Part shown: in pieces, positions 24,749-58,914 of the stretch
Layout: every line of letters starts with the position of its first letter
How positions within the stretch are numbered: position 1 is the first letter of the stretch
Virus record (IMG/VR): IMGVR_UViG_3300020048_006428
Span: 183,178-247,177 of that record
DNA from: a virus
Taxonomy: Duplodnaviria > Heunggongvirae > Uroviricota > Caudoviricetes
DNA length: 64,000 nt
Strand: one strand, 5' to 3'
The notes under the pieces: model-generated
What the model was told of the DNA's origin: nothing
What the model saw: the letters and a program-made list of their open reading frames with translations, nothing else
Database searches by the model: none
Program-made: the position numbers and the translations under genes

Positions 24749-25552
24749 ATGGTAGACGTACAAGCAATTAAATCTTTTAGTGAGCAAGATTCTTATTTTA
24801 AAGAACGAACAGGTAATGATTTTACTTTCTTTTATAATAAGTATTACCCAAAACTTATTTATTTCACAACCAAAATGTGTAATAATGATATTCAAAAAGC
24901 AGAAGATATAACAACTGATTCTTTTATGACTGCATTTGATAAAATATATATGTATGAAAAAGATAAATCACAATTTTCAACATGGTTATTTACAATTGCA
25001 AGAAATTTTGTCTTACAAGATATTAAGAAGAAAAAGAAAACAATTTCACTTGATGTTGAATTTGATGAAGAAGGCACAACCTTAAAAGACTTTATTCAAG
25101 AAGATGAAGATTTAAGTTATATTTCCGATGTAGCAAGTAAAAAGGCTGTTATTTTAAATAAATATATTAATGAATTAAAAGAACCCTATAAAAAGGTTAT
25201 AGAAATGCGTGAAATCAAAAAGATGACTTATAGAAATATTGCTTCTGATTTAGGTGATGATATAACTATAACTTTGGATATAACTTCAGAAGAAGAATTT
25301 GAACTTCCTAAAGAAATATCATTGATTTATAATTTCGTTGATTCTAACGGTAATGAAAGTGGATATGAAGCAATAGTAAAACCAAAATCTCCTTTCTTTA
25401 CTTATATTAAAGCTTTACCAGGTAAATATACACTACATGGTAGATGTCCTAAAAATCTAAATACAGTTAAAAGTTCCATTAAAAATGGAAGGGCAATACT
25501 TATAAATAAATCTAAAAAAGAATTTCAGATACTTGATGAAATGTTTTTGTAA
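24749..25552 (+). CDS. sigma-70 family (ECF-like) RNA polymerase sigma factor with C-terminal extension
   Basis: region 2 AEDITTDSFMTAFDK..FSTWLFTIARNFVLQDIKK; region 4 LKEPYKKVIEMREIKKMTYRNIASDLG. Confidence 0.55.
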   Translation: MVDVQAIKSFSEQDSYFKERTGNDFTFFYNKYYPKLIYFTTKMCNNDIQKAEDITTDSFMTAFDKIYMYEKDKSQFSTWLFTIARNFVLQDIKKKKKTISLDVEFDEEGTTLKDFIQEDEDLSYISDVASKKAVILNKYINELKEPYKKVIEMREIKKMTYRNIASDLGDDITITLDITSEEEFELPKEISLIYNFVDSNGNESGYEAIVKPKSPFFTYIKALPGKYTLHGRCPKNLNTVKSSIKNGRAILINKSKKEFQILDEMFL

Positions 25553-26641: not shown

Positions 26642-27340
26642 TTAATAGAATTTAAAATATCTACCCTTGATAGACTTCATCTTTTCATTACAAACTCTAC
26701 TTATATTACTATTATCTATTTTAGTTGATCTTGAACAGTCCATTATTGAATCCCATTTTTCTATTATATTACCAAATTCATCAATTTCAACAACACACTT
26801 TCTAACAGCGTTTGGATTATCTATTTTTTTAACTGCTACTTTTTTAAATCTAAATATAAAACCACCTGTATGTGAAAATATACCATTACACGATCTTGAT
26901 ATATTTGAATGTGATAATTCTAATACTTCTGCTGCAAATCTAACAGATTTAAATTTTTGTATAAAATCACCATTTAAATCATATTGATAAACAATTTTAC
27001 TTATTTTTTTAATTGCACGATCTATAATTTCTCTTTTTCTGTTAATATTACCTTGCCCAGTTTCATCAGAATTTGTTAATTTACTATCTTTATATAATCT
27101 TATAAATTCTGTTTCATATTTAACAAATTCTGTTAAAGGACATATCTTTAATATTTTCATTAAAGGTTTTAGATTTTTTTTAATAAGACTATTTATCCAA
27201 ATTGATCTGTAGTTGTGTTCTTTTTTACAATACAAATGTTGTCTAAGTCTATCTTTAGGATTTATCGTCTTCCCTATATATCTAACACTATTATCCCTTG
27301 GATCTAACAATGCATATATGTATGCTATATCTGTTTTCAT
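26642..27340 (-). CDS. GIY-YIG homing endonuclease-like protein
   Basis: IAYIYALLDPRDNSVRYIGKT...R..H GIY-YIG motif; lone minus-strand gene among + genes. Confidence 0.6.
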   Translation of the reverse strand: MKTDIAYIYALLDPRDNSVRYIGKTINPKDRLRQHLYCKKEHNYRSIWINSLIKKNLKPLMKILKICPLTEFVKYETEFIRLYKDSKLTNSDETGQGNINRKREIIDRAIKKISKIVYQYDLNGDFIQKFKSVRFAAEVLELSHSNISRSCNGIFSHTGGFIFRFKKVAVKKIDNPNAVRKCVVEIDEFGNIIEKWDSIMDCSRSTKIDNSNISRVCNEKMKSIKGRYFKFY

Positions 27341-30534: not shown

Positions 30535-30768
30535 ATGGAAAATATATCTATCAATGGCATAACATATAAAACCACAAAAGAAGAAATTAAACCTTCTGAA
30601 AAATTTATTTCTTTTCTATATGATGAAAATGATGAACCAGTATATGGTGTTTATACTTGTATGCATAAACACATAGGTGAATTTGAAAGTCATTATACAA
30701 CAGAAGAAAAAATTAATAATAGACATTTAATTTTTGATGTTAACACATGTTATAAAATATTTAATTAA
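30535..30768 (+). CDS. small hypothetical protein
   Basis: ORF. Confidence 0.35.
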   Translation: MENISINGITYKTTKEEIKPSEKFISFLYDENDEPVYGVYTCMHKHIGEFESHYTTEEKINNRHLIFDVNTCYKIFN

Positions 30769-30769
30769 T

Positions 30770-31201
30770 ATGAATAAGATAGTAAATAGAAAAGCAAATT
30801 ATGAATACCACAATATTAAAGAATATATTGCAGGTATTCAATTGCTTGGATCAGAAGTAAAATCACTAAGAAAAGGTGAATGTAATATAACAGAAGCATA
30901 TTGTTATATTATAAACAATGAAGTATTTTTAAAAAATATGTATATTGCAAGACACGACCAATCTTTGATAAATCACGAAGAAAAACGTGATAGAAAATTA
31001 CTTCTTTCTAAAAAAGAAATTAGAGATATTTCTAAAATGGTTAGAGAAAATGGAATAACTTTAATTCCATTGGAACTTTTTACCAAGCAAGGACTGTTTA
31101 AGTTTAAAATATCAGTTGTAAAAGGCAAAAAGGATTTTGATAAAAGAAATTCTTTGCGGGAGAAAGACGCTAAGAGAGAAATGGAAAAATCTTTAAAATA
31201 A
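30770..31201 (+). CDS. smpB: SsrA-binding protein SmpB
   Basis: VNRKANYEYHNI..GIQLLGSEVKSLRKGECNITEAY..RKLLLSKKEI..VKGKKDFDKR aligns along full length with E. coli SmpB. Confidence 0.8.
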   Translation: MNKIVNRKANYEYHNIKEYIAGIQLLGSEVKSLRKGECNITEAYCYIINNEVFLKNMYIARHDQSLINHEEKRDRKLLLSKKEIRDISKMVRENGITLIPLELFTKQGLFKFKISVVKGKKDFDKRNSLREKDAKREMEKSLK

Positions 31202-32822: not shown

Positions 32823-32896
32823 GATCCTGTAGCGTAATTGGGTAACGCAAATTGCTTTTAACAATTTAGATGCAAGTTCAAATCTTGCCAGGATCA
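32823..32896 (+). tRNA. tRNA-Lys (anticodon TTT)
   Basis: acceptor gatcctg/caggatc, T-loop gcaagttcaaatcttgc, anticodon loop cttttaa. Confidence 0.6.
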
Positions 32897-32919
32897 CAAA
32901 AATATTAAATTTTAAAAAT

Positions 32920-32996
32920 GGTGATGTAGCTGAATTGGTCTAGCACCTGATTGAAGATTAGGGATTATGTGGGTTCAAATCCCATCGTCACCACCA
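32920..32996 (+). tRNA. tRNA-Phe (GAA), CCA encoded
   Basis: acceptor ggtgatg/cgtcacc, anticodon loop ttgaaga, gggttcaaatccc T-arm, 3' acca. Confidence 0.6.
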
Positions 32997-33004
32997 ATAA
33001 ATAA

Positions 33005-33086
33005 GGAAGAGTACACGCTGGAATGTGGGGCTGTTTTGAAAACAGTTAAGTCTTACGATTTGAGGGTTCGAGTCCCTCTTCTTCCT
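33005..33086 (+). tRNA. tRNA-Ser (TGA), long variable arm
   Basis: acceptor ggaagag/ttcttcc, anticodon loop tttgaaa, T-arm gagggttcgagtccctc. Confidence 0.5.
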
Positions 33087-33097
33087 CAAATTACATT

Positions 33098-33169
33098 TTG
33101 TATGAACCCAAATGGCGAGGGACAATATTGTGAATATTGGTTTAGCGAGTTCGATCCTCGTCATACAAG
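33098..33169 (+). tRNA. tRNA with anticodon GTG (His-like but no G-1)
   Basis: acceptor ttgtatg/catacaa, anticodon stem caata/tattg loop ttgtgaa, T-arm gcgagttcgatcctcgt. Confidence 0.4.
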
Positions 33170-33180
33170 CAAAATTATAT

Positions 33181-33268
33181 GGAAGCGTAGCATAATGGTA
33201 ATGCAGCAGTCTTGAAAACTGCCGTGTCGTGTAAAAGCGGCTTGTGAGTTCGAATCTCACCGCTTCTT
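33181..33268 (+). tRNA. tRNA-Ser (TGA), long variable arm
   Basis: anticodon stem gcagt/actgc loop cttgaaa; T-arm gtgagttcgaatctcac. Confidence 0.5.
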
Positions 33269-33275
33269 CTAAAAT

Positions 33276-33363
33276 GGAAGATTGACAGAATGGTATTGTG
33301 CTGTCCTGCTAAGACAAGGCTATCGGTAACACCGGTACATAGGTTCGAATCCTATATCTTCCG
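33276..33363 (+). tRNA. tRNA-Ser (GCT), long variable arm
   Basis: acceptor ggaagat/atcttcc perfect; anticodon loop ctgctaa; T-arm ataggttcgaatcctat. Confidence 0.5.
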
Positions 33364-33372
33364 CAAAATTTT

Positions 33373-33448
33373 GGTGATGTAGCTGAATGGTCTAGCACCT
33401 GATTGAAGATCAGGGATTATGTGGGTTCAAGTCCCACCATCACCACCA
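33373..33448 (+). tRNA. tRNA-Phe (GAA), CCA encoded, second copy
   Basis: acceptor ggtgatg/catcacc; anticodon stem cctga/tcagg loop ttgaaga; 3' acca. Confidence 0.6.
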
Positions 33449-33451
33449 AAT

Positions 33452-33524
33452 AGGGATATAGTTCAATGGTTTAGAATAATCGGTTCCAACCCGATTGATG
33501 TGGGTTCGAATCCTACTGTCCCTG
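33452..33524 (+). tRNA. tRNA-Trp (CCA)
   Basis: anticodon stem atcgg/ccgat loop ttccaac; T-arm gtgggttcgaatcctac; acceptor agggata/tgtccct. Confidence 0.6.
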
Positions 33525-33708
33525 CAAACTTTTTTAAAATTTAAAAACATTTAGAAAAATAAAGTAACAAATATATGGAATGTCCAAAATGTAAAAATGA
33601 TGAAAATCTACATTATAATTTAGATTATTCTAAAAAAGAATTACCCATAATTGATTCTTTGTAATGAATGTGGTGAATTATTTGAATGTAAAGAAGAAAA
33701 GTAAACAT

Positions 33709-33781
33709 GGTGTGTGTAGCTCAGAGGCAGAGCATTCGGTTGTGATTCGAAATGTCGGGATATCGTAATTCCTCATGCACC
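33709..33781 (+). tRNA. tRNA-His (GTG) with G-1:C73
   Basis: D-arm tagctcagaggcagagca; anticodon stem ttcgg/tcgaa loop ttgtgat; extra 5' G pairing with discriminator C; T-loop unusual. Confidence 0.45.
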
Positions 33782-33799
33782 CAAAAAAATTATACAATT

Positions 33800-33873
33800 G
33801 GCACTATACCCGTAAAGGCATCCGGAATTGATTCTTGCTCAAAATTATGTAGGTTCGACTCCTACTAGTGTCA
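33800..33873 (+). tRNA. tRNA-like, possibly Lys (CTT)
   Basis: acceptor ggcacta/tagtgtc; T-arm gtaggttcgactcctac; anticodon loop ttcttgc; D-stem imperfect. Confidence 0.3.
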
Positions 33874-34253
33874 CACAAACTAAAAAAATATATATGATAA
33901 TCCACAAGCACGAAAATTCTGATAGTATGTCAGAATATGAATATAAAGATTTAGAAGCACTTGATATAGATGAAATCTGGTATAAATATAATTGTGGTAG
34001 CTATGAAGGTAGTGGTCAACTAATTGCAAGAAAGGCGATTTGTTTTCACATCATGATATGGGGCATTGTTCTTGTTATGGTGGTGTTGAAAGATTTGAAT
34101 TTAATGGTAGACCTTTAGATGAATTAATATCTTATCTAAAGAAAAATCAAGAATATTATTATAATGAAATAATGGAAGTTTTGAGTTTTATGAAAGTTTA
34201 TATTAGAAATTTAAATAATTAGGAAGATAAACTGTTTTGGTGAACAGTCACGA

Positions 34254-34808
34254 TTGGAAATCGTTGAGTACGTAGTTATGTATCAGTTTCGATTACTGTA
34301 TCTTCCGCTATATATGATGTCATTTGATGAATTTTGGGAATGTTTTGATGAAGCATTTAATGATCCAATCCAAATAAAGTGGATTGATAAACCTTATGAA
34401 TACATAGGGTTATTTACTTTGAATAATAAAGTCTATAATATTTATACTATAAATAAAGGTGATAATATTTGGACTTTTAAATTTTATGTTTATTTAGATG
34501 GTAAATTATCACCTAATCTAACAAATGATTATAAAAATATGTTTAGGGTTTTACCAACAATTAAACAAGGATTTATTGATCTTATAAATGAAAAAAATCC
34601 AGATGGTATAATATTTGGTGCTTTAGATGAATCAGAAGTAAGAAAGAAACTATATAATAGTTTTTCTATTGATATATCAAAGCAATTTGATTATGAATAT
34701 ACATCAAAAGAAAAAGATAATAAGAAAATTTATATCTTATATAAACCAAATATAAATAAAGAAATACTTTTTAATAAAATAATTCAAATTACAACTGATG
34801 AAATATGA
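34254..34808 (+). CDS. hypothetical protein
   Basis: ORF after tRNA cluster. Confidence 0.4.
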   Translation: MEIVEYVVMYQFRLLYLPLYMMSFDEFWECFDEAFNDPIQIKWIDKPYEYIGLFTLNNKVYNIYTINKGDNIWTFKFYVYLDGKLSPNLTNDYKNMFRVLPTIKQGFIDLINEKNPDGIIFGALDESEVRKKLYNSFSIDISKQFDYEYTSKEKDNKKIYILYKPNINKEILFNKIIQITTDEI

Positions 34809-39804: not shown

Positions 39805-40614
39805 ATGTATAATTTATATTATTTGAAATCTACGCTTGATGATAAAATTTATGTTGGTATAACCAATAATCCGGAACGTAGATATTATGAACACATCCAC
39901 TACACAGTTGAAAAAAATCACTACAATGGAAATTGGATAAGAAAGACACTTAAAAATGGTGGTGAAATAAAAATGGAAGTTGTTTTATCCAATTTAACAA
40001 AAAAAGCAGCAATTCAATTAGAAATTAGATTAATTGAAATGTTAAAAAAACTAACACCTAAATATATTACTAATACAGCACAAGGGGGTTATGGATTCAA
40101 TCACAAAGGAATACCACATTCAGAAGAACATAAAAAAGCTTTAGAAAAAGCCCAACCACATAAAGTTAGAATTCCAAAAGATATACTCTATGATTTATAT
40201 GTAAATAAAAAATTATCAAAGAAGAAAATAGGTAAAATTTATAATTGTGGACCTACAACTATTGATAGAAGATTAATTGAATATGGTATACAAGCTAGAA
40301 CAACAATTAATTATAAAGTTAGCTATAAATTAGATAAGGATGAAATATTAGATATGTTCATAAATAAACAAATTAGTATATCTGAAATAGCAAATATATT
40401 TAATATTGGTGATAATGGAATTCGGTCTTTATTAAAAAGGGAAGGTATAGACACTGGATTAAATAAAAACAAATTAAAATATGATAGAATAAAAATCAAA
40501 GAAAGATATTTAATTCTATTAAATGAAAACAAAAAGAAAAAAGAAATATATGATATTATAACAAAAGAATTCAATTTAAAAGATAGATATTCTATATCAA
40601 AATGTGTTAGATAA
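39805..40614 (+). CDS. GIY-YIG endonuclease-like protein
   Basis: YNLYYLKSTLDDKIYVGITNNPERRYYEH. Confidence 0.55.
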   Translation: MYNLYYLKSTLDDKIYVGITNNPERRYYEHIHYTVEKNHYNGNWIRKTLKNGGEIKMEVVLSNLTKKAAIQLEIRLIEMLKKLTPKYITNTAQGGYGFNHKGIPHSEEHKKALEKAQPHKVRIPKDILYDLYVNKKLSKKKIGKIYNCGPTTIDRRLIEYGIQARTTINYKVSYKLDKDEILDMFINKQISISEIANIFNIGDNGIRSLLKREGIDTGLNKNKLKYDRIKIKERYLILLNENKKKKEIYDIITKEFNLKDRYSISKCVR

Positions 40615-40677: not shown

Positions 40678-41433
40678 ATGACATTTTTAGAAGCAGCAAC
40701 ATATACACTAATACAAAATGGTAATCAACCAATGTCATCAAATGAAATATGGGATTATATAAAACAAAATAATTTATACAAAACAAATGGTAAAACCCCC
40801 TGGGCAACACTCAGTACTATTTTATTAAAACATTCAGATAATAGTAAAGTAAATGGTAAATATAAAGAAATAATACTAACAATTGTATCAAAAAATCCTA
40901 TCAAATATATATTATTAAACTTTAACACACCAACCAATTTAATAGAAGATACAGAAGATACAGAAGATATAGAAGAAGAACTAACTGTTCTAACTGAAAA
41001 AGTTCTTTTATATCAAATAACATCAAAAGAATTGGGTTGGAAAAAATTATCAGTTTATAATAATAATGAAAATATAGAATATGAAATTTCTGATTGTGAA
41101 GAATATACATATATTATGGAAGATAAAGCACACGCTACCATAAAAATAGGTAAAACAAAGAACGATCCTGAATTAAGATTGAATCAGTTAAAAACTGGAA
41201 ACCCATCAATATCATTATTACATATTTTCCCATCATCACAATATTGCGAAAGTGAATTACACGAAAAATTTAATGATTTTCAAAAAGACTTAGAATGGTT
41301 CTTTTATACAAAAGGACTTAAAAACTTTATGAATGATGAATTGAAGAAATATAAATATATTATCAGTTCATATAATATGAAAATGGAACTGGATAAAATA
41401 GAAAAAGAAATGTTGGAAAATATTTCTTTTTAA
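40678..41433 (+). CDS. HARE-HTH + T5orf172 (MUG113/GIY-YIG-like) domain protein
   Basis: N-terminus MTFLEAATYTLIQNGNQPMSSNEIWDYI; C-terminus ATIKIGKTKNDPELRLNQLKTGNP..ESELHEKF. Confidence 0.5.
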   Translation: MTFLEAATYTLIQNGNQPMSSNEIWDYIKQNNLYKTNGKTPWATLSTILLKHSDNSKVNGKYKEIILTIVSKNPIKYILLNFNTPTNLIEDTEDTEDIEEELTVLTEKVLLYQITSKELGWKKLSVYNNNENIEYEISDCEEYTYIMEDKAHATIKIGKTKNDPELRLNQLKTGNPSISLLHIFPSSQYCESELHEKFNDFQKDLEWFFYTKGLKNFMNDELKKYKYIISSYNMKMELDKIEKEMLENISF

Positions 41434-41871: not shown

Positions 41872-42173
41872 ATGAAAATAGAAAGAATTTTAATGAATAA
41901 TATAAACAAAGATATGTTAAAAGAGTATATCAACACTAAATATGCAGATAAATATAATGTGATTGATATTAAATCAATTGTTCCTTATAAGTTTCTTTAT
42001 AAGGAAGGATTTTTTGATACTATTCAGATAGAATGGAATGGTTATTGGGTTATAGAGATGGTAGTTGGGTTTATCATAACGATAGAACAATTCAATTTAA
42101 TTTATCTTCTTATCAAGAATGGTTGGCTGATATTAGAAATAAAAATTTAGAAGAATTACTAAGTAATATATGA
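41872..42173 (+). pseudogene. mosaic array gene 1, apparent -1 frameshift after IEWNGYW
   Basis: frame A gives IEWNGYW then junk to 42150; -1 frame gives YRDGSWVYHNDRTIQFNLSSYQEWLADIRNKNLEELL matching family C-terminus, stop 42171-42173. Confidence 0.4.
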
Positions 42174-42454
42174 TAAACAAGTATATGTTAAAAGAGTATA
42201 TCAATACTGAATTTGCAGATGTATATAATTTGATTGATATTAAATCAATTGCTATTTATACAAAAGTATTTGGTGGTAATATAATAGCTGATATTATTCA
42301 GATAGAGTGGGTTGGTTGGTGGAGTAATTATAATGGGACTTGGATTTATAGTGATAATAGAACAAATCAATTTAATTTAGATTTATATAAAGAATGGTTG
42401 GTTGATATTAGAGATAAAAAATTAGAAGAATTATTGGATTATACCTTAGATTAA
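42170..42454 (+). CDS. mosaic array gene 2 (IEW..W / NRTNQFNLDLYKEWLVDIRDKKLEELL family)
   Basis: ORF; C-terminal 215 nt identical to gene 3. Confidence 0.5.
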   Translation: MINKYMLKEYINTEFADVYNLIDIKSIAIYTKVFGGNIIADIIQIEWVGWWSNYNGTWIYSDNRTNQFNLDLYKEWLVDIRDKKLEELLDYTLD

Positions 42455-42555
42455 TTTTTATGATAATAGACAAGGATAAATTAAAAGAGTATATCCATAC
42501 AAAATATGGACATAAATATCGTGTGGTTGAAATTCATACAATATCCATTCGTAAG
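42341..42555 (+). repeat. 215-nt direct repeat (1 mismatch) with 42691-42905, period 350 nt
   Basis: tggatttatagtgataa(t/a)agaacaaatcaattt ... atatccattcgtaag in both. Confidence 0.8.
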
Positions 42556-42804
42556 GTTACATTTTATTGGGATGAAATAAATCAAGATTCAAGATACTAT
42601 TTAACTGCTAAGAAAAATAGATCTGTTCAAATTGATATGATTAAAATAGAATGGTCTGGTTGTATTAATGAATACTATAATCTAAATACTTGGATTTATA
42701 GTGATAAAAGAACAAATCAATTTAATTTAGATTTATATAAAGAATGGTTGGTTGATATTAGAGATAAAAAATTAGAAGAATTATTGGATTATACCTTAGA
42801 TTAA
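42460..42804 (+). CDS. mosaic array gene 3
   Basis: 5' ~100 nt identical to gene 4, 3' ~120 nt identical to gene 2. Confidence 0.5.
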   Translation: MIIDKDKLKEYIHTKYGHKYRVVEIHTISIRKVTFYWDEINQDSRYYLTAKKNRSVQIDMIKIEWSGCINEYYNLNTWIYSDKRTNQFNLDLYKEWLVDIRDKKLEELLDYTLD

Positions 42805-42809
42805 TTTTT

Positions 42810-43127
42810 ATGATAATAGACAAGGATAAATTAAAAGAGTATATCCATACAAAATATGGACATAAATATCGTGTGGTTGAAATTCATACAATATCCATTC
42901 GTAAGATTGAATATTATGAAGAATCTGTTGATTTTAATGGTATATATGATGTTATTAAGATAGAATGGGCTGGTTGGAAAGTTGTTAGTAAACATACACA
43001 TAATCCAAAATTTAAGGATAATTGGACTTATGTTGTTAATAGATTAAGCCGATTTAAGTTAGAAGATTATCAAGAATGGTTGACTGGTATTAGAGATAAA
43101 AAATTAGAAGAATTATTGGATTATTAA
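42810..43127 (+). CDS. mosaic array gene 4
   Basis: shares 5' module with gene 3, divergent middle. Confidence 0.5.
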   Translation: MIIDKDKLKEYIHTKYGHKYRVVEIHTISIRKIEYYEESVDFNGIYDVIKIEWAGWKVVSKHTHNPKFKDNWTYVVNRLSRFKLEDYQEWLTGIRDKKLEELLDY

Positions 43128-43426: not shown

Positions 43427-43618
43427 ATGGACTTTTTATTTTTACAATTTTATATAAAGAAAAAATACAACCAATCGGTTGATGAATATTTTTCAGTTGG
43501 TAAACAAAGTGTTTCTGATTGGAGAAGATCTTCTAAAATACCACCACAAAGACTTTTAGAATTTCTTGAAAAAGAAGGATCAATGGATCCAAAAGAATTA
43601 ATATTTAAAATTTATTAA
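43427..43618 (+). CDS. small XRE-like HTH protein, tandem copy 1
   Basis: MDFLFLQFYIKKKYNQSVDEYFSVGKQSVSDWRRSSKIPPQRLLEF. Confidence 0.4.
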   Translation: MDFLFLQFYIKKKYNQSVDEYFSVGKQSVSDWRRSSKIPPQRLLEFLEKEGSMDPKELIFKIY

Positions 43619-43620
43619 CT

Positions 43621-43818
43621 ATGGACTTTTTATTTTTACAGTTTTATATAAAGAAGAAATACAACCAATCAATTGATGAATATTTTAGTATAGGAAAACA
43701 AAGTACTTCTGATTGGAAGGTAGCTAATAAAATACCACCCCAAAGAATATTAGAATTCTATGACAAAGAAGGTTCTATTGATATCCTTATTTTATTCAAG
43801 AAATTATATAATTTATAA
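43621..43818 (+). CDS. small XRE-like HTH protein, tandem copy 2
   Basis: first 20 aa identical to 43427 ORF. Confidence 0.4.
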   Translation: MDFLFLQFYIKKKYNQSIDEYFSIGKQSTSDWKVANKIPPQRILEFYDKEGSIDILILFKKLYNL

Positions 43819-44290: not shown

Positions 44291-45187
44291 ATGGACAAAG
44301 ATAGGTTATTAAAATATGGACAATTCTTAAAAGAAGCTTTGGATCCATGGAAATTAAAACAAGGTATAAAGTCATTTAATAGACAACCTGAAGAAATGTT
44401 AACTATTGATGGTGATTTAAAAGATCTATCTAGTAAATTAACAACTGAACTATCCAATATAAAATTACCATATACAAAATTATTAAATTTTGGTGGAATT
44501 GAAGTTGATATTAAAATAATACAATCAAATAAAAATTATTCCAAAGTTGATTGGGCTAAGTTTTTAAAAGGTGATTATGAAATAATAATAGAAGTAGAAG
44601 AAAATTATGATTTAAACTATGCTATATCAACTATTATACATGAATTAAGACATATGTTAGATTTCTGTGATGAAAACCTAAATTCAGGTTTATCATCTTT
44701 TGATATAGATAAAAATCTAAGAAAATATAATATTGATATATTTAATCAATTTTATATACTTGTTTATATTTCATTAGAACACGAATTAGTAGCCAGGAAT
44801 AATCAAATATATCCATATATTAAATTTAAAAATCTAACCAAAGAAGAATCAATTGAAATATTAAAAAAATCTTTTATTTGGAAAGCATTAGAAATGCTTA
44901 AAGGATTTGATTATAATGGATTCATAAATAAATTTGATATATCAACACTAATAAATATAACTAATAATTTTATAAAAGATTGTTTATATGACAATGAATC
45001 ATATATTGAAAATATAGATGAATTAAGAAATTTCTATAAAATATGGGATGAATATTTTAATGAAATATCAGATAAATGGAAAAAATTATTATTAAGGGAA
45101 GTTGATTATGTATATGAAAGAAAAATAAATAATCAATTTATATCATATAAAGATGTAATTATTGACATTTGGAAACGGATTAAATAA
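44291..45187 (+). CDS. hypothetical protein with HExxH motif (IIHELRHMLD)
   Basis: ORF; possible zinc metallopeptidase-like motif. Confidence 0.4.
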   Translation: MDKDRLLKYGQFLKEALDPWKLKQGIKSFNRQPEEMLTIDGDLKDLSSKLTTELSNIKLPYTKLLNFGGIEVDIKIIQSNKNYSKVDWAKFLKGDYEIIIEVEENYDLNYAISTIIHELRHMLDFCDENLNSGLSSFDIDKNLRKYNIDIFNQFYILVYISLEHELVARNNQIYPYIKFKNLTKEESIEILKKSFIWKALEMLKGFDYNGFINKFDISTLINITNNFIKDCLYDNESYIENIDELRNFYKIWDEYFNEISDKWKKLLLREVDYVYERKINNQFISYKDVIIDIWKRIK

Positions 45188-45218
45188 ATTAAAATTTTGT
45201 TATATAAAATATATTACT

Positions 45219-45226
45219 TATCTTTG
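45219..45226 (+). promoter_or_regulatory. Bacteroidota sigmaA-type promoter: TTTG (45196-45199) - N19 - TATCTTTG
   Basis: 23 nt before ATG 45249. Confidence 0.45.
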
Positions 45227-45248
45227 TTTCAAAGTATATAAAACTAAA

Positions 45249-45917
45249 ATGGATAAGATTACACATAATGCATTCATAAACATTCTCCATAAAGATTATG
45301 GGGAATGTTTTATTAAGGTTCTATCCAAAAGAACCTTTAATGATTTAATAAAAGAAATAGATCATATTTCTGATAATTCAGGTTTTTATGGTTATTCTGA
45401 TAGTGATGATGACACATCAAATACTGGTAAGAATAAGTTTGTAGGTGACTTATTTGAAATATTCACAGAAGCTTTCTTTATACAGTTTAAATCTGATAAT
45501 AGAATAGGTATATTTGATTATAAACCGGTTCCATCAGAAGATGATAATGGTGTTGATGGTTTTGGTAAGAATATATCAGGACTTCCTTGTACAATACAAA
45601 TAAAATATAGAAGTAACCCAACTTATAAACTAACAGAAAGGGATATAAAGCAATTTGCTTATCAAAGTATTATTAATTATAATGTTGATTATAAAAGGAA
45701 TGATACTATGATAATATTTACCAATTGTGATGGTTTACATTGGTATACAGAATCTAAAGTATTTGATAATAAGTTAAGAGTTATAAATGGAAAGACAATA
45801 TCAAAATTAATAGATAATAATGAAGGATTTTGGAACTCTTTTAAAGAAATTATCATTAATAGTGTTAATGAAGTTGGTATTGATAAATTAACTGAAATAT
45901 TTAAAGAAAAATTATAA
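45249..45917 (+). CDS. Mrr-cat-like PD-(D/E)xK restriction endonuclease-like protein
   Basis: GDLFEIFTEAFF...DDNGVDGFG resembles Mrr catalytic domain. Confidence 0.45.
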   Translation: MDKITHNAFINILHKDYGECFIKVLSKRTFNDLIKEIDHISDNSGFYGYSDSDDDTSNTGKNKFVGDLFEIFTEAFFIQFKSDNRIGIFDYKPVPSEDDNGVDGFGKNISGLPCTIQIKYRSNPTYKLTERDIKQFAYQSIINYNVDYKRNDTMIIFTNCDGLHWYTESKVFDNKLRVINGKTISKLIDNNEGFWNSFKEIIINSVNEVGIDKLTEIFKEKL

Positions 45918-45918
45918 T

Positions 45919-46497
45919 ATGAATATACACCAACACCAACAAACAATAACAAAAGAAGATAGAATTAAACTAACAAATCAAACACCGTTTGTTATTTGGT
46001 TTACTGGGTTATCCGGTTCAGGTAAAAGCACAATTGCCAATGAACTATCAAAAAAGCTATATGAATTAGGAAAACTTAGTTATATATTAGATGGTGATAA
46101 TATCAGATTAGGTCTTAATAAAGATTTAGGATTTTCAGAAACTGATAGAAAGGAAAACATAAGAAGAATTTCCGAAGTTGCAAAACTAATGGTGGATTCT
46201 GGTATATTAGTAATAACTGCCTTTATATCACCTTTTGCTGCTGATCGAGAATCAGCTAAACAAATTATAGGAAATGAAAATTTTATTGAAGTGTTTATTG
46301 ATACACCACTTGAAGTTTGTGAACAAAGGGATCCAAAAGGTTTATATAAAAAAGCTAGAATAGGGGAAATTAAACAATTTACTGGAATTAGTTCACCTTA
46401 TGAGTTTCCGGTTAATCCAGATTTAACTATAACAACAAATGAAACCGAAGAAGAATCAAGTCAAAAGATTCTTGATTTTATTAAAAATAAAATTTAA
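45919..46497 (+). CDS. cysC: adenylylsulfate (APS) kinase
   Basis: VIWFTGLSGSGKSTIA..LDGDNIRLGLNKDLGFSETDRKENIRRISEVAKLM..ITAFISP..FIEVFIDTPLEVCEQRDPKGLYKKARIGEIKQFTGI about 55% identical to E. coli CysC by eye. Confidence 0.8.
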   Translation: MNIHQHQQTITKEDRIKLTNQTPFVIWFTGLSGSGKSTIANELSKKLYELGKLSYILDGDNIRLGLNKDLGFSETDRKENIRRISEVAKLMVDSGILVITAFISPFAADRESAKQIIGNENFIEVFIDTPLEVCEQRDPKGLYKKARIGEIKQFTGISSPYEFPVNPDLTITTNETEEESSQKILDFIKNKI

Positions 46498-46498
46498 T

Positions 46499-46945
46499 AT
46501 GTGGAATAAAAAAAATCATGGTGGGAATCCCACTAATAATCAAGATAAGAAATATGCTGTTTTTATTGGAAGATATCAACCTTATCATTACGGTCATATA
46601 AATTTAATTCAACAAAAAATTAATGATGGAATACCAATTCTAATAATGGTTAGAGATATTGAACCCGATGAAAAAAATCCCTTTACAACTGAACAAACAG
46701 TGGCAATGATTGAAAAATATCATAATTCAAAAGGTGATGATGTAAAAGTAATGATTATCCCAGATATAGAATCGGTTAATTATGGTAGAGGTGTTGGTTA
46801 TGAAATTAATGAATATGAACCTACTGAAGAAATTTCATTTATATCTGCTACCAAAATAAGAGATTCTATAAAAAATAATAATTCTGATTGGACTAAAATG
46901 GTAGATGAATCTATACAATCAGATGTAATAAAATATTTAAGTTAA
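46499..46945 (+). CDS. NMN/nucleotide adenylyltransferase-like (cytidylyltransferase superfamily)
   Basis: AVFIGRYQPYHYGH matches archaeal/bacterial NMNAT GRFQPFHxGH. Confidence 0.5.
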   Translation: MWNKKNHGGNPTNNQDKKYAVFIGRYQPYHYGHINLIQQKINDGIPILIMVRDIEPDEKNPFTTEQTVAMIEKYHNSKGDDVKVMIIPDIESVNYGRGVGYEINEYEPTEEISFISATKIRDSIKNNNSDWTKMVDESIQSDVIKYLS

Positions 46946-46946
46946 A

Positions 46947-47198
46947 ATGATTGATAATTCACATAAAAGACATATATTTAAGGCAATTACTTGGCGAATA
47001 ATAGGAACGATAGATACAATAGTATTAAGTTGGATTATAACTGGTGATTTAACAATTGGATTAGGAATAGGTGGGTTAGAACTTTTTTCTAAAATGTTTT
47101 TGTATTATATACATGAAAGAATTTGGTATAAAAGTAATTTTGGTCTTAAAAATAGAAAAAAATATGACAACAATAGAACAAATACTACAAACATTTAA
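46947..47198 (+). CDS. small two-TM membrane protein
   Basis: WRIIGTIDTIVLSWIITGDLTIGLGIGGLELFSKMFLYYI. Confidence 0.35.
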   Translation: MIDNSHKRHIFKAITWRIIGTIDTIVLSWIITGDLTIGLGIGGLELFSKMFLYYIHERIWYKSNFGLKNRKKYDNNRTNTTNI

Positions 47199-48822
47199 TA
47201 AACATCAAAAAGAAATGTTTGATATTCTTAATAAGAATTCTAAGTATCAATTTAGAGTTCCTACTGGTGTTGGTAAAGGTTATGTTATGATAGCGCATAT
47301 TTTAAATAATGTCATAAATACAGAACTAAGCAAATTTGTTATATCATCACATAGACTTAGTCTAAATAATCAACATCTTAGAGATTTAATAAACCTTTAT
47401 ATTGATCTTAATTTAATCAGTAAAGTTAAATTTCTATCGGTTGGATCACAAGCACTTAATATAAATAAACTATTAAGTGATGATTATGAATTGGCTAAAA
47501 AATTTAATAATCAAGTTTTTGAATATAACTTTGGTAAATCTTATAAAATGTCACAAAATGATATTTTTAAATCAACACTTACCAAAGCAGAAGTAAATAA
47601 AATAGTAAACAAAAACACAAAAGATGGGTTTAAAACAATTATAATTTCAACTTATAATTCATTAGATAAAATAAAAGACCAAAAAATTGATATCATCTAT
47701 TTAGATGAGGCGCATATTTTAGCAACAGAAAAAGAAGTTGCTGATTTTAAATCATCTTATGAATCAATTAATTCCACCAAAAGGTTCTTTTTTACTGCTA
47801 CACCAAAAGATGTAGAAGAACAGTTAATTAAAGATGGTGAAGCTTCTGATATATTCTTAATGAATAATACAGATATATTTGGTGATATTTATGAAATAAA
47901 ATTTATTGATTGTGTTCAAAATGGCTATATAACTAAACCAATTATTCATATAGCTTATCCAACCGATTTCAATGAATCTACAAATTATGATTCAGTTGAA
48001 AATAAAACAACATTCATAAAAGATACATTTAAAGCACACGAAAAATGGTTAAAATCAATTTCACATAATCCAACTGAGATTGAACCAAAAGTTCTTGTAA
48101 GATGCGAATCTGTTAAACAAATGTGGTGTCTTAGAAAAGAATTGGTTAAAATATTAGATAAAGATATTATTGTTTGTGCTGGTGCTTCATACAATGATGG
48201 TGATGAAGCTAATCATATTATTGGAAACAAATATATAAAGAACCGTGATGAATGGTTGAAAAAATTGCAAGATGTTGAAGACAATCAAAAGATGATTATT
48301 CTTAACTTTGATATTATGAGTGAAGGAATAAATATTTCCGGTATTACTGGTGTTCTTTTCTTACAAGGTAAAATGCCATCTATTGCTAAGGTAATTCAAA
48401 ATATTGGCAGAACTACCAGGCTTCATCCAATTGATAGAAATAAACTTAAAAATGGTGAAATAAAAGTTGGTGGTGAAAATTGGATAAAACCACACTCTGC
48501 TGTTATTATTCCTTATTGGGATGCTGCTTCTGAATTTACTAAGAAAATACTGGCAGATGTTGTAAGAAAACTTAGGGATTCTTGGGAATTTGATCCACAC
48601 TTCGTTTTAAGCGTAGGTGATGACTTTGCTGAATCAGATGGTAAGAATGATATTGAAGGTCTTAATAACCTAGATAAGAAGGCTAAAAAGGCTAAACTTA
48701 TTGATGAAATTAATCAAGAAATAGAAAAATTAGATTTGTCTAATATAAATGATAAAGAAGAACAAAGAATTGCATCTTTATCAAAAGCTCAACTTTTAAA
48801 AGAAAAACTTAATATTGGGTAA
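47164..48822 (+). CDS. SF2 DEAH-box helicase (ResIII-like)
   Basis: motif I VPTGVGKG, motif II IIYLDEAHIL, motif VI QNIGRTTRL. Confidence 0.55.
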   Translation: MTTIEQILQTFNKHQKEMFDILNKNSKYQFRVPTGVGKGYVMIAHILNNVINTELSKFVISSHRLSLNNQHLRDLINLYIDLNLISKVKFLSVGSQALNINKLLSDDYELAKKFNNQVFEYNFGKSYKMSQNDIFKSTLTKAEVNKIVNKNTKDGFKTIIISTYNSLDKIKDQKIDIIYLDEAHILATEKEVADFKSSYESINSTKRFFFTATPKDVEEQLIKDGEASDIFLMNNTDIFGDIYEIKFIDCVQNGYITKPIIHIAYPTDFNESTNYDSVENKTTFIKDTFKAHEKWLKSISHNPTEIEPKVLVRCESVKQMWCLRKELVKILDKDIIVCAGASYNDGDEANHIIGNKYIKNRDEWLKKLQDVEDNQKMIILNFDIMSEGINISGITGVLFLQGKMPSIAKVIQNIGRTTRLHPIDRNKLKNGEIKVGGENWIKPHSAVIIPYWDAASEFTKKILADVVRKLRDSWEFDPHFVLSVGDDFAESDGKNDIEGLNNLDKKAKKAKLIDEINQEIEKLDLSNINDKEEQRIASLSKAQLLKEKLNIG

Positions 48823-57333: not shown

Positions 57334-58914
57334 TTAATATTTTTTTGAATATTTTTTGCTTCCACAATCATATACTTTCATAAAATCAAGCTCTGACATA
57401 ATAACACTTTCAGTCTTATCTTTATCAAATCCCTTTTCAACCAATAATTTTTTTCTGAAATTAAATCTATGTGTTTTATTTAAATATTTATCATAATACC
57501 AATAATTTACTTCTGTATTATGTATAAATTCAAATCCATTTTTTAAATAAACATTATCAATGAAACTCCAATCTCTATTAGCATATGTTACTAATTCAAT
57601 TGGTTTTATTTCATCTTCAAATCTTTTTAATAATCTAGAAAATGCACCAACTACATTAGTATTTATCTTTGATGCAAATCTATATAATTCATAAACGCCA
57701 TCTTTTCCTTTTGATCCCAATGCTGATCTCAATTTACCAAAAGTCATTAAACTAACCAACTCATCATTATAATATAATCCTATTTTATAACTGGAATTTA
57801 TATGTCCTTGTAAATGATTAGCATCTAAAAAGTCCTTGGCTTCCACATTTTCAACTTTTTTTATAATACACTTTCTTGCCATTATTTTTTCACTTGTTAT
57901 ACCAAGTGCATTCTTTATCCTGGACAATGTTATTTCTTTTTTATATAACCAATTATCTTCCCAAATATGAATAAGATTTATATTTAATTTTTCACAGTTT
58001 TCTTTTTTGTCTAAGTGATACTTCTTTTCTTTGTATAAATCAGAATGCCAATATATACCATTAAATTCAATCGCTATGTTTTTAGATTCAATATATAAAT
58101 CCAATTCTTTTCCATTTAATATTTTTCTGTTTCCCCTTTCAATTTCAAAGTAATCCTTTAGTTCATCATATATTTCATTTTGTGATGTGAATTTATATGA
58201 ACTCAACGGGTTACAATTTAAACAAGGAATAACATTATATCTTAAATGCCTTAACCTTAATAATGGTGTTTTTATATCATATTCATTATTACATCTATCA
58301 CATAGTATTCTAACTTCACCATCTTTTTCAATATTAACTATATTAAGACCAGTATATAGCTCTATTGTTTTATTTTTATATTGATTAAACCTTGTATCTA
58401 AACTTTTTTGTAATAATGTGGAACTTTCACCTGAGTATTCAACGTTGTATTTTTGTAACATTGTATTTTTCTGCTTTTCTAAAATTTCTAAATTCAATGT
58501 AGGCGAAACAAAGCCATACTTTTCAATATTAGTCTTTTTTTGCTTATCCTTAACAAAATCTAATTTTGATGTATGTTCAACACCATATTTTTCTAAAGTA
58601 TTCAATTTCCTATTTTCAATAGCTTTTGGTAATGAATTCTTACAAGCACATTTTTTTGAACAAAATTCATTATATCCGGAACTAAATCCTAAAAACCTTT
58701 GTTCATTAATTGAACATTCTTTACAAAGAGGAATATCTGAAATGTTATTAACATAGTTATAGATAACTTGCGAAAACTTTAAATCATTCTGATTATTAGC
58801 AATTTGAAAATCTTTTAACTTTTTATAAAAAAAAGATAAGTTTTTTTGAACCCATTGTTCTCTTAATTTGTTCTTATTTAAAGAACCCTTGTCGTAAAAA
58901 ATATTTATATCCAT
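57334..58914 (-). CDS. multi-domain protein with Cys-rich N-terminus and DUF559/Vsr-like PD-(D/E)xK endonuclease domain
   Basis: ELDLYIESKNIAIEFNGIYWHSD..NLIHIWEDNW resembles DUF559; several CxxC pairs upstream. Confidence 0.4.
   Translation of the reverse strand: MDINIFYDKGSLNKNKLREQWVQKNLSFFYKKLKDFQIANNQNDLKFSQVIYNYVNNISDIPLCKECSINEQRFLGFSSGYNEFCSKKCACKNSLPKAIENRKLNTLEKYGVEHTSKLDFVKDKQKKTNIEKYGFVSPTLNLEILEKQKNTMLQKYNVEYSGESSTLLQKSLDTRFNQYKNKTIELYTGLNIVNIEKDGEVRILCDRCNNEYDIKTPLLRLRHLRYNVIPCLNCNPLSSYKFTSQNEIYDELKDYFEIERGNRKILNGKELDLYIESKNIAIEFNGIYWHSDLYKEKKYHLDKKENCEKLNINLIHIWEDNWLYKKEITLSRIKNALGITSEKIMARKCIIKKVENVEAKDFLDANHLQGHINSSYKIGLYYNDELVSLMTFGKLRSALGSKGKDGVYELYRFASKINTNVVGAFSRLLKRFEDEIKPIELVTYANRDWSFIDNVYLKNGFEFIHNTEVNYWYYDKYLNKTHRFNFRKKLLVEKGFDKDKTESVIMSELDFMKVYDCGSKKYSKKY

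What the first reader, a model, noticed from the sequence alone, without database searches (positions are those of the whole stretch)
44291..48822. Unusual cluster: APS kinase next to an NMNAT-like nucleotidyltransferase, an Mrr-cat-like nuclease, a small membrane protein and a DEAH helicase
ORF 45919-46497 is a textbook APS kinase (CysC), which makes PAPS from adenosine 5'-phosphosulfate by 3'-phosphorylation. I know of few phage examples. It overlaps a 148-aa protein with the H-x-G-H nucleotidyltransferase motif in NMNAT form (GRYQPYHYGH). Upstream are an HExxH protein and an Mrr-like PD-(D/E)xK nuclease; downstream are a 2-TM mini-protein and an SF2 DEAH helicase. All are tightly packed, with overlapping starts and stops. 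Possible roles are sulfur or PAPS supply for a sulfotransferase-dependent modification, synthesis of a non-canonical 3'-phosphorylated or adenylylated nucleotide (a signalling, anti-defence or DNA-modification precursor), or a nuclease-plus-helicase defence or anti-defence island. A kinase acting on a nucleotide 3'-OH paired with a nucleotidyltransferase fits the second possibility.
Basis: partly seen in the sequence, partly recalled or inferred. Interest (0 to 1): 0.7.

Follow-up and report, generated by a model that had tools for sequence, protein, structure and literature searches.

The report
Phage PAPS-synthesis cassette with novel sulfurylase candidate
Three tightly packed genes in a huge marine phage (APS kinase, a tiny NMNAT-like adenylyltransferase and a DUF2061 protein) form a widespread conserved cassette that most likely makes the sulfate donor PAPS, with the small enzyme apparently replacing the usual ATP sulfurylase; the neighbouring nuclease-like and helicase genes are a separate unit.

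The parts
45919..46497 (+). cysC: canonical adenylyl-sulfate (APS) kinase, 192 aa. It carries out step 2, APS + ATP -> PAPS.
   Evidence: PF01583 235.9 bits. TIGR00455 267.4 bits against cutoff 138.7, and NF003013 279.1 against 163. The P-loop GLSGSGKST, LDGDNIR, NKDLGFSxxDRKENIRR, FISP and KGLYKKAR motifs are all present. The start lies 1 nt after the upstream stop.
46499..46945 (+). 148-aa HIGH-motif adenylyltransferase, NadM/NMNAT-like in its ATP-binding half. It has family-specific VRD and [YF]GR[GD]VGY motifs. Proposed role (inferred): minimal sulfate adenylyltransferase for step 1, ATP + sulfate -> APS + PPi.
46947..47198 (+). DUF2061 protein, 83 aa, predicted two-helix membrane hairpin. 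It is a conserved accessory of PAPS-synthesis operons. Its role is unknown; a membrane tether or a link to sulfate supply is inferred.
   Evidence: PF09834 74.6 bits. It lies within 1.5 kb of the transferase in 35 of 52 groups. Fusions exist: DUF2061-CysC in L036 and transferase-DUF2061 in P0153. It sits immediately upstream of cysC-cysD-cysN in Formosa, Zhouia and Bizionia.

Best explanation
The three genes at 45919-47198 are a self-contained PAPS-synthesis cassette carried by a huge AT-rich marine phage, probably one infecting Bacteroidota.

Step 1 (inferred): the 148-aa adenylyltransferase uses ATP and sulfate to make APS and PPi. It would be a minimal, GTP-independent sulfurylase that evolved from a NadM-type NMNAT scaffold and replaces CysDN or Sat.

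Step 2 (shown by homology): canonical CysC phosphorylates the 3'-OH of APS to give PAPS. This pulls the unfavourable first step forward.

DUF2061 is a constant accessory of such operons. Inferred roles are tethering the enzymes at the membrane or coupling them to sulfate supply or glycan assembly.

Across the family, PAPS most often feeds phage- or cell-encoded sulfotransferases inside glycosylation islands. In this particular phage the consumer is unidentified. It could be a sulfotransferase elsewhere in the 354-kb genome, or host PAPS-dependent pathways.

My estimates: cassette = PAPS synthesis, about 0.85. Transferase = sulfate adenylyltransferase, about 0.65. Use = sulfation rather than assimilation, about 0.55.

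The upstream HExxH and nuclease-like genes and the downstream helicase are not part of the cassette.
For: - CysC passes equivalog cutoffs.
- Among 52 dereplicated loci, 46 have an APS-kinase-type gene fused to or within 300 nt of the transferase, 35 have DUF2061, and 17 have one sulfotransferase family within about 0.5 kb. L004 (Sulfotransfer_2) and L012 (three sulfotransferases) add to this.
- A 41%-identical member shows the order sulfotransferase-transferase-APS kinase.
- Rosetta-stone fusions exist: CysC-transferase and transferase-CysC in dozens of 50%-identity clusters, plus DUF2061-CysC, transferase-DUF2061 and CysC-HAD phosphatase.
- Cellular operons read CysQ-DUF2061-CysC-CysD-CysN inside polysaccharide loci.
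- The Flavobacteriales locus L012 has CysC, the transferase, CysQ, a flippase and three sulfotransferases but no CysDN.
- CysD and CysN are absent from all ~100 loci and from the window.
- The trimmed kinases that partner near-identical transferases keep the DGDxxR and GRxxNI phosphosulfate-clamping residues.
- The family has invariant R52 and R97. NMNATs have Gly-Ser at the first position and the NxxW nicotinamide site at the second.
Against: - There is no biochemical evidence.
- About 10 locus groups, in a DNA-metabolism context, lack both DUF2061 and a sulfotransferase.
- Two MAG loci show the transferase without a kinase.
- A NADAR protein lies next to the kinase in Sano, and two genes upstream of cysC in LR756500. 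This hints at a possible NAD/ADP-ribose link.
- No sulfotransferase, CysQ or CysH occurs in the ~84 kb of this phage that could be read.
- A small uncoupled sulfurylase faces a very unfavourable equilibrium.
Confidence: 0.62

Rival explanations
1. The cassette is an ordinary assimilatory-sulfur AMG. The phage boosts host sulfate assimilation (PAPS -> host CysH -> sulfite -> cysteine/methionine) rather than supplying sulfotransferases. The enzymology is the same and only the downstream use differs.
For: This is the published reading of viral cysC. No sulfotransferase lies in the ~84 kb read for this phage. In two Bacteroidetes SAGs the CysC-transferase pair sits next to metK and ahcY, and in L011 the transferase lies next to metH.
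Against: Sulfotransferases are the commonest neighbour family-wide. The cellular DUF2061-cysC-cysDN operons lie in polysaccharide loci with CysQ, not with cysH/cysIJ. No cysH was seen near any cassette.
Confidence: 0.25
2. The small transferase is a genuine NMN adenylyltransferase for NAD+ salvage or reconstitution, for example to counter NAD-depleting defences. Its position beside cysC would then be incidental.
For: The best sequence and fold matches are archaeal and NadM NMNATs. Many phages carry NadM-Nudix genes. NADAR proteins neighbour the kinase-transferase fusion in Sano and lie near cysC in LR756500.
Against: It scores far below the NMNAT cutoffs, 49 bits against 127 and 45 against 181. 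Only the ATP-binding half aligns. The Gly-Ser and NxxW positions of NMNATs are replaced by invariant Arg-Asp and GRG. The transferase is adjacent to or fused with APS-kinase domains in 46 of 52 groups and in dozens of clusters. No NAMPT or Nudix partner is present in the cassette.
Confidence: 0.07
3. The kinase and the transferase together make a non-canonical 3'-phosphorylated adenylylated nucleotide. This would be a signalling, anti-defence or DNA-modification precursor, and was the first reader's preferred idea.
For: The two-step logic of adenylyl transfer followed by 3'-phosphorylation fits. One subgroup sits among DNA-metabolism genes (DUF3310, DNA MTase, DHH) with no sulfotransferase or DUF2061. 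The Sano and DLP_6 fusions lie in nucleotide and replication regions.
Against: The window kinase is a full equivalog of CysC, with every APS-binding motif. The context with sulfotransferases, CysQ and the displaced CysDN points to PAPS. There are no PADLOC hits.
Confidence: 0.06
4. The transferase belongs to the PAPS pathway but is not the sulfurylase. It could be a regulatory or scaffolding partner of APS kinase, or an enzyme that recycles AMP, PAP or APS. In that case the host CysDN or Sat supplies the APS.
For: The linkage evidence only shows a shared pathway, not the reaction. The catalytic HxGH and ISxTxxR motifs are also compatible with other adenylyl transfers.
Against: The catalytic residues are strictly conserved, including H30, H33, R25 and R121. 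Loci such as L012 contain every other step but no sulfurylase. PAPS-synthase-like fusion architectures occur in both orders.
Confidence: 0.08
5. The whole 44291-48822 stretch is one nuclease-helicase defence or anti-defence island that includes the kinase.
For: All genes lie on the same strand and are tightly packed, with 1-nt spacers or overlaps.
Against: None of 52 related loci carries the flanking genes. The nuclease-like and helicase homologues pair on their own around a DNA methyltransferase in cyanomyophages. There are no PADLOC matches. Tight packing is the norm throughout this phage.
Confidence: 0.02

Closest known systems
Bifunctional PAPS synthases (ATP sulfurylase + APS kinase; e.g. 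human PAPSS1 1x6v, Aquifex Sat-CysC 2gks, Thiobacillus 3cr8)
   Different: The transferase here has about 150 aa, with only three core strands and no PUA-like N-domain. It does not match PF01747 and is closer in sequence to NMNAT. The cassette has a DUF2061 partner that PAPS synthases lack.
Flavobacteriaceae operon CysQ-DUF2061-CysC-CysD-CysN in polysaccharide loci (Formosa algae, Zhouia amylolytica, Bizionia arctica)
   Same: DUF2061 is directly coupled to cysC. The sulfate-activation genes form one operon, and they are associated with glycan biosynthesis. The window's DUF2061 is 54-65% identical to these proteins.
   Different: The heterodimeric GTP-dependent sulfurylase CysDN is absent, and the 148-aa transferase stands in its place. 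The gene order is rearranged, and no CysQ lies in the window.
Archaeal/NadM-type NMN adenylyltransferase (1f9a, 1ej2, 2qjt)
   Different: It scores below all curated NMNAT cutoffs. The second-substrate half does not align. The stretch between the DIE motif and ISATxIR is much shorter than in the 168-aa archaeal NMNAT. Invariant Arg-Asp and GRGVGY replace the Gly-Ser and NxxW elements of NMNATs. The genomic partner is always an APS kinase, never a NAMPT, Nudix or NR kinase.
Viral cysC auxiliary metabolic gene (Kieft et al. bioRxiv 10.1101/2021.01.05.425418; Chen and Banfield, PMC10914622)
   Same: It is the same gene class. It is abundant in marine and freshwater viruses, enriched in large genomes, and expressed in situ.
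   Different: Those studies treat cysC as a stand-alone step of assimilatory sulfate reduction. In the passages retrieved, neither mentions the linked transferase, DUF2061 or the sulfotransferase islands.
Dedicated sulfate-activation genes of sulfation clusters (rhizobial NodP/NodQ with the NodH sulfotransferase; from general knowledge, not tested here)
   Same: A private sulfurylase plus APS kinase sits next to a sulfotransferase, supplying PAPS for glycan sulfation.
   Different: NodPQ are CysD/CysN-CysC homologues. Here the sulfurylase candidate belongs to a different family.
PPAT + dephospho-CoA kinase (CoaD/CoaE)
   Different: The kinase here is a canonical APS kinase, not CoaE. The context is sulfation, not CoA synthesis.

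Membership tests
APS kinase (CysC; PF01583 / TIGR00455) | Score above the curated family cutoffs over the full length | tested here: met
   PF01583 235.9 bits against 21.1. TIGR00455 267.4 against 138.7, and NF003013 279.1 against 163.
APS kinase (CysC; PF01583 / TIGR00455) | P-loop, DGDxxR, NxxLxFSxxDRxENIRR, FISP and the KGLYKKAR lid motifs | tested here: met
   All are present in the window protein and aligned with bacterial and phage CysC.
APS kinase (CysC; PF01583 / TIGR00455) | Catalyses APS + ATP -> PAPS + ADP | not testable with these tools
   Needs an enzyme assay.
NadM/archaeal NMN adenylyltransferase (TIGR01527, NF002243) | HxGH and ISxTxxR nucleotidyltransferase motifs | tested here: met
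   GRYQPYHYGH and ISATKIR are present. H30, H33, S116, T118 and R121 are invariant or nearly so.
NadM/archaeal NMN adenylyltransferase (TIGR01527, NF002243) | Score above the curated equivalog/subfamily cutoffs | tested here: not met
   NF002243 49.4 bits against 127. TIGR01527 45.2 against 181.2.
NadM/archaeal NMN adenylyltransferase (TIGR01527, NF002243) | Conserved NMN-binding half: Gly-Ser after strand 2 and the DIExNxxW nicotinamide site. The role of these residues is recalled from the 1ej2/1f9a literature, not verified here. | tested here: not met
   Alignments to 2qjt, 2qjo and 1f9a cover only residues 20-90. NMNAT 'IGS' aligns with the family-invariant 'VRD'. 'FNSIW' aligns with the 'YGRxxG' loop.
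Homo-oligomeric ATP sulfurylase (Sat; PF01747 + PUA-like N-domain) | Match to PF01747 | tested here: not met
   The window protein has no PF01747 hit. Two distant family members score 26.0 and 23.8 bits against a cutoff of 24.3, which is a weak bridge only.
Homo-oligomeric ATP sulfurylase (Sat; PF01747 + PUA-like N-domain) | PUA-like N-terminal domain and a ~350-400-aa architecture | tested here: not met
   The protein is 148 aa with a single minimal Rossmann-like domain.
Homo-oligomeric ATP sulfurylase (Sat; PF01747 + PUA-like N-domain) | Shared catalytic fold | tested here: met
Homo-oligomeric ATP sulfurylase (Sat; PF01747 + PUA-like N-domain) | Catalyses ATP + sulfate -> APS + PPi | not testable with these tools
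   Inferred from operon displacement and fusions only.
Heterodimeric ATP sulfurylase CysDN | PAPS_reduct-type CysD plus GTPase CysN | tested here: not met
   No CysD or CysN homologue occurs in the window, its contig flanks or ~100 related loci. Precomputed Pfam annotation shows none.
DUF2061 (PF09834) | Match above the gathering cutoff | tested here: met
   74.6 bits against 23.1. It is 54-65% identical to named Flavobacteriaceae DUF2061 proteins.
Conserved kinase-transferase-DUF2061 cassette (defined here) | APS-kinase-type gene adjacent to or fused with the transferase, with DUF2061 within ~1.5 kb | tested here: met
   The window has all three with 1-nt spacers. The family-wide frequencies are 46 of 52 for the kinase and 35 of 52 for DUF2061.
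Conserved kinase-transferase-DUF2061 cassette (defined here) | Sulfotransferase nearby | tested here: not met
   No sulfotransferase lies in the ~84 kb around the window cassette, by Pfam annotation, HMMs and PAPS-motif scan. It is present in 19 of 52 other groups.
Known anti-phage defence systems (PADLOC) | Match to any defence-system protein model | tested here: not met
   Only P-loop noise appears for CysC (E >= 2e-4). The other six proteins have no hits.
Mrr-cat / PD-(D/E)xK nuclease (for ORF 45249-45917) | Match to a PD-(D/E)xK family model or structure | tested here: inconclusive
   There is no Pfam, NCBIfam or PDB hit. The only match is phrog_7683, of unknown function, at 104 bits. The motif-level resemblance (D...QxK) remains unverified.

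The most novel reading that the evidence does not exclude
The ~150-aa transferase family is a third, previously unrecognised class of ATP sulfurylase: minimal, GTP-independent, and derived from a NadM-type NMNAT scaffold. It has non-orthologously displaced CysDN or Sat in many marine phages and in some Flavobacteriales. Together with CysC and DUF2061, it lets phages make their own PAPS to sulfate glycans on virion or host-surface proteins. The glycosylation islands containing adhesin-like and Pro-Thr-repeat proteins point to this. Viral 'cysC AMGs' would then serve glycan sulfation rather than sulfur assimilation.
Probability: 0.5. Interest if true: 0.8.

Novelty: new variant of a known kind. 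Interest (0 to 1): 0.66.

Why it matters
If the small transferase is a sulfate adenylyltransferase, it adds a third enzyme family for the first step of sulfate activation. At about 150 aa it would be a compact, GTP-independent part of possible use for PAPS regeneration in biocatalysis.

It would also assign a pathway to DUF2061, a domain with no functional literature.

It would change how one of the commonest viral sulfur 'AMGs' is read. Viral cysC is currently counted as assimilatory sulfate reduction in ecosystem models. The linked sulfotransferase and glycosyltransferase islands suggest instead that phages direct sulfation of glycans, on virions or host envelopes. I found no paper describing phage-directed glycan sulfation.

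The hypothesis is directly testable by a simple complementation experiment or enzyme assay.

Tried and rejected
- **PF01747 bridge.** Two distant family members hit the ATP-sulfurylase Pfam model near its cutoff. The same proteins match NMNATs best in PDB and carry unrelated HNH-like N-domains. I treated this as weak.
- **Cryptic sulfotransferases.** The recurrent unannotated neighbours unk293, unk305, unk259, unk282, unk371 and unk164 are not sulfotransferases. hhalign probability was below 1%.
- **DHH472 as an NrnA-type PAP phosphatase.** It has no PDB or PHROG match, so I dropped this lead.
- **Sulfotransferase, CysD, CysN or CysQ in the window and contig flanks.** None was found by Pfam annotation, family HMMs, phmmer or PAPS-motif regex.
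- **Promoter and terminator scan of 43.6-49.5 kb.** It was at background level (48 found against 50.5 expected) and so uninformative.
- **Defence-system models.** There were no meaningful hits.
- **PDB sequence searches for the HExxH and nuclease-like flanks.** Nothing was found.
- **Cultured phages with the close cassette.** None exists in the collection. Only Sano-like and DLP_6 fused distant versions were found, and the island-type sulfotransferase DNA has no match.
- **Literature.** I found nothing on DUF2061 function, on a transferase partner of viral cysC, or on phage glycan sulfation.
- **First structure model.** The shallow alignment gave pLDDT 77 with a disordered key loop. I replaced it with a deeper-alignment model at pLDDT 91.

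Full report
**1. What is in the window**

The window is very AT-rich (about 24% GC). It carries an eight-tRNA array. It also has typical huge-phage genes: a sigma factor, SmpB, GreA, a ligase, homing endonucleases, and strong PHROG matches of 156-386 bits. Its proteins occur on a 353,919-bp metagenomic contig, ena:ERZ27262918:k141_234028. The window corresponds roughly to positions 70-134 kb of that contig. The only DNA-level relative among deposited phages is a 462-kb uncultured phage, and only at cysC.

- a 298-aa protein with an HELRH motif (44291-45187)
- a 222-251-aa protein (45162/45249-45917)
- cysC (45919-46497)
- a HIGH-motif nucleotidyltransferase
- an 83-aa DUF2061 protein (46947-47198)
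- an SF2 DEAH helicase (47113/47164-48822)

CysC is canonical. It scores 235.9 bits on PF01583, 267 bits on TIGR00455 (cutoff 138.7) and 279 bits on NF003013 (cutoff 163), and it has every APS-kinase motif.

An alignment with 25 relatives fixes the transferase start at 46499 (MWxKxNHGG), not 46439. The three genes are therefore separated by single bases (TAA-N-ATG) and do not overlap.

The 'Mrr-like' and 'HExxH' proteins match no curated family or solved structure. The former matches only phrog_7683, which has unknown function.

**2. The real unit is three genes, not six**

The transferase belongs to a very large family. Thousands of proteins are 78-89% identical to it. At 50% clustering there are 413 representatives with E <= 1e-10.

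I fetched about 100 loci from metagenomes, IMG/VR viral contigs and GTDB genomes and dereplicated them into 52 groups besides the window. Among these groups:
- 46 have an APS-kinase-type gene fused to the transferase or within 300 nt of it. Of these, 17 are canonical CysC and 29 are a trimmed ~148-aa form.
- 35 have DUF2061 within 1.5 kb.
- None has a homologue of the window's HExxH protein, nuclease-like protein, helicase or downstream 162-aa protein.

Fusions tie the three together:
- CysC-transferase in L025 and L054
- short kinase-transferase in L021
- DUF2061-CysC in L036
- transferase-DUF2061 in P0153
- CysC-transferase and transferase-CysC, in both orders, in dozens of 50%-identity clusters

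The trimmed kinases keep the P-loop, DGDxxR, aromatic-xxx-GRxxNI and SxxP elements of CysC. They have lost only about 14 lid residues, so the acceptor site is conserved.

The flanks behave as their own unit. In cyanomyophages ACG-2014f and S-CAM7, homologues of the nuclease-like protein and of the helicase bracket a DNA methyltransferase or a 417-aa ORF. In the window, the sulfur cassette occupies that middle slot. No protein in the stretch matches a defence-system model.

**3. What pathway**

The most frequent neighbour family of the cassette is a sulfotransferase with canonical 5'-PSB and 3'-PB PAPS-binding motifs. It occurs in 17 of 52 groups, usually less than 0.5 kb away.

Many phage contigs share an island: adhesin-like protein - GT8 - two GT-like unknowns - sulfotransferase - kinase - transferase - DUF2061 - Pro-Thr-repeat protein - DUF285 protein - GlcNAc transferase. 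Another group has Sulfotransfer_2 plus several glycosyltransferases directly upstream. A 41%-identical member shows the order sulfotransferase-transferase-APS kinase.

The window's DUF2061 is 54-65% identical to named Flavobacteriaceae DUF2061 proteins. In Formosa algae, Zhouia amylolytica and Bizionia arctica the chromosomal operon is (CysQ)-DUF2061-CysC-CysD-CysN, inside capsule or EPS loci. DUF2061 is thus a regular, though uncharacterised, member of cellular PAPS-synthesis operons. I found no functional literature on it.

**4. What the small transferase most likely does**

In the phage cassette the transferase stands where CysDN stands in the cellular operon.

A Flavobacteriales MAG locus (L012) reads CysC - transferase - 233-aa unknown - CysQ - Wzx-type flippase - three sulfotransferases. 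Every step of a sulfation pathway has a gene there except sulfate activation. Only two genes in that run lack a Pfam-assigned role: the transferase, which is an adenylyltransferase-fold enzyme, and the 233-aa protein with no Pfam match.

CysD and CysN homologues are absent from all ~100 loci and from the ~84 kb of the window's contig that I could read.

The protein is not an NMNAT by the curated tests. It scores 49 bits against a cutoff of 127, and 45 against 181. Only residues 20-90, the ATP-binding half, align to NMNATs. NMNAT 'IGS' is replaced by invariant 'VRD', and the 'NxxW' region is replaced by an invariant Gly-rich loop, [YF]GR[GD]VGY. The sequence between the DIE motif and ISATxIR is much shorter than in the 168-aa archaeal NMNAT, and the model shows only a loop there.

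Two extra invariant arginines and a Gly-rich loop are what one would expect for a small dianion such as sulfate. This last point is inference.

I therefore propose this sequence of reactions:
- ATP + sulfate -> APS + PPi, catalysed by the transferase (inferred)
- APS + ATP -> PAPS, catalysed by CysC (by homology)

DUF2061 would act as a membrane-associated accessory (inferred). The architecture parallels bifunctional PAPS synthases. The CysC-HAD phosphatase fusions in L020 and L028 would fit PPi or PAP removal, but that is speculative.

**5. Caveats**

- There is no biochemistry.
- The transferase is closer to NMNAT and PPAT than to Sat. PF01747 does not hit it. Two distant members score near that model's cutoff, but I regard this as weak.
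- About ten groups, in the context DUF3310 - kinase - transferase - DNA MTase - DHH, have no DUF2061 or sulfotransferase nearby.
- Two MAG loci have the transferase without a kinase.
- NADAR proteins lie next to the kinase in Xylella phage Sano and near cysC in LR756500.
- In the window's own phage no sulfotransferase, CysQ or CysH lies within reach. The PAPS consumer here is unknown. The standard 'assimilatory AMG' reading cannot be excluded for this genome.

**6. Comparison with what is known, and novelty**

Viral cysC is a known and widespread AMG. It is enriched in large phage genomes and transcribed in situ, and it is interpreted as assimilatory sulfate reduction. The passages I retrieved from those papers, and my other searches, turned up no description of the linked transferase, of DUF2061, or of the sulfotransferase islands.

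The pathway itself, PAPS synthesis, is known. The candidate enzyme for its first step and the cassette architecture are new. I rate the finding a new variant of a known kind.

The preferred 'exotic nucleotide' reading and the 'nuclease-helicase island' reading are not supported. The 'PAPS supply' reading is.

**7. Verdict**

The cassette is real and far beyond chance. I put PAPS synthesis at about 0.85, the transferase as a sulfate adenylyltransferase at about 0.65, and sulfation as the use at about 0.55 family-wide, with the use unknown for this phage. Interest is 0.66. The idea can be settled by a cysD/cysN complementation experiment or a sulfate-dependent APS-formation assay.

Noticed in passing
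window 45162/45249-45917 and 47164-48822; L102 (ACG-2014f gp052-gp054); L103 (S-CAM7 054-056): The nuclease-like protein (phrog_7683) and the SF2 helicase that flank the cassette have homologues in cyanomyophages. There they bracket a DNA methyltransferase or a 417-aa ORF. This is a conserved trio of unknown role with a variable middle slot.
   Followed up: partly
window 41872-43127 and 43427-43818: There are tandem paralogue arrays. Four or five small ORFs (92-114 aa) share the C-terminus YKEWLVDIRDKKLEELLDY. Two adjacent 63/65-aa ORFs both begin MDFLFLQFYIKKKYNQS.
   Followed up: no
window 32823-34308: An array of eight tRNA genes (Lys, 2 Phe, 4 Ser, Trp) coincides with a local GC rise to 0.32.
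   Followed up: no
window 454-1128, 1638-2393, 3130-3699, 8130-8735: A cofactor and nucleotide gene set lies upstream: DNA ligase, an AAA_33-type kinase, a NUDIX hydrolase and a CoaE-like (dephospho-CoA kinase family) protein. The last is another adenosine-3'-OH kinase family in the same phage.
   Followed up: no
window 24749-25552, 30734-31201, ~27.75-28.15 kb, 13423-14223, ~13.1-13.4 kb: Host-like and mobile functions are present: a sigma-70 factor, SmpB, a 128-aa ORF hitting Cas12f1-like_TNB next to a thioredoxin, a tyrosine integrase, and a Lar-type restriction-alleviation protein.
   Followed up: no
window 26642-27340(-), 39805-40614, 40678-41433, 57334-58914(-): Several homing-endonuclease-type genes occur: GIY-YIG/NUMOD, GIY-YIG, HARE-HTH+T5orf172, and an HNH/homing endonuclease scoring 386 bits on phrog_3339.
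   Followed up: no
L033, L035, L037, L038, L048-L051 (e.g. L040:6912-7406): In the phage sulfation island, the gene right after DUF2061 encodes a ~164-aa protein with a long Pro-Thr repeat tail (PTPTPT...). It is flanked by adhesin-like (UspA repeat) and DUF285 proteins. These are plausible acceptors for O-glycosylation and sulfation.
   Followed up: partly
L020:5039-5995, L028:5025-5990: Here CysC is fused to a C-terminal HAD phosphatase domain (HAD_2; phrog_1238, GmhB-like). It could be a PAP or pyrophosphate phosphatase built into the cassette.
   Followed up: partly
L001 (Xylella phage Sano 9820-22125), L002 (Stenotrophomonas phage DLP_6), L003 (LR756500): Cultured phages Sano, Salvo, Bacata and DLP_6 carry a fused APS-kinase-like/transferase protein (phrog_10255). 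In Sano it is preceded by a NADAR protein, and the same early region encodes a 'cysteine dioxygenase' and MazG. A NADAR gene also lies two genes upstream of cysC in the 462-kb phage, which has no transferase downstream.
   Followed up: partly
P0254, P0194, P0181, P0127: Some transferase family members carry an N-terminal Cys-rich HNH-like domain of 80-240 aa. This suggests homing-endonuclease-type fusions or insertions at this gene.
   Followed up: no
L070-L093 (e.g. L073:5559-6381): In a distinct subgroup the short kinase and the transferase sit between DUF3310 and a DNA N6/N4 methyltransferase, with a DHH-domain protein and DUF192 nearby. There is no DUF2061 or sulfotransferase. The use of the product there is unexplained.
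   Followed up: partly
window vs ena:ERZ27262918:k141_234028: The coordinate offset between window and contig differs between look-ups. The window is therefore a near-identical but not base-identical copy of that contig.
   Followed up: no
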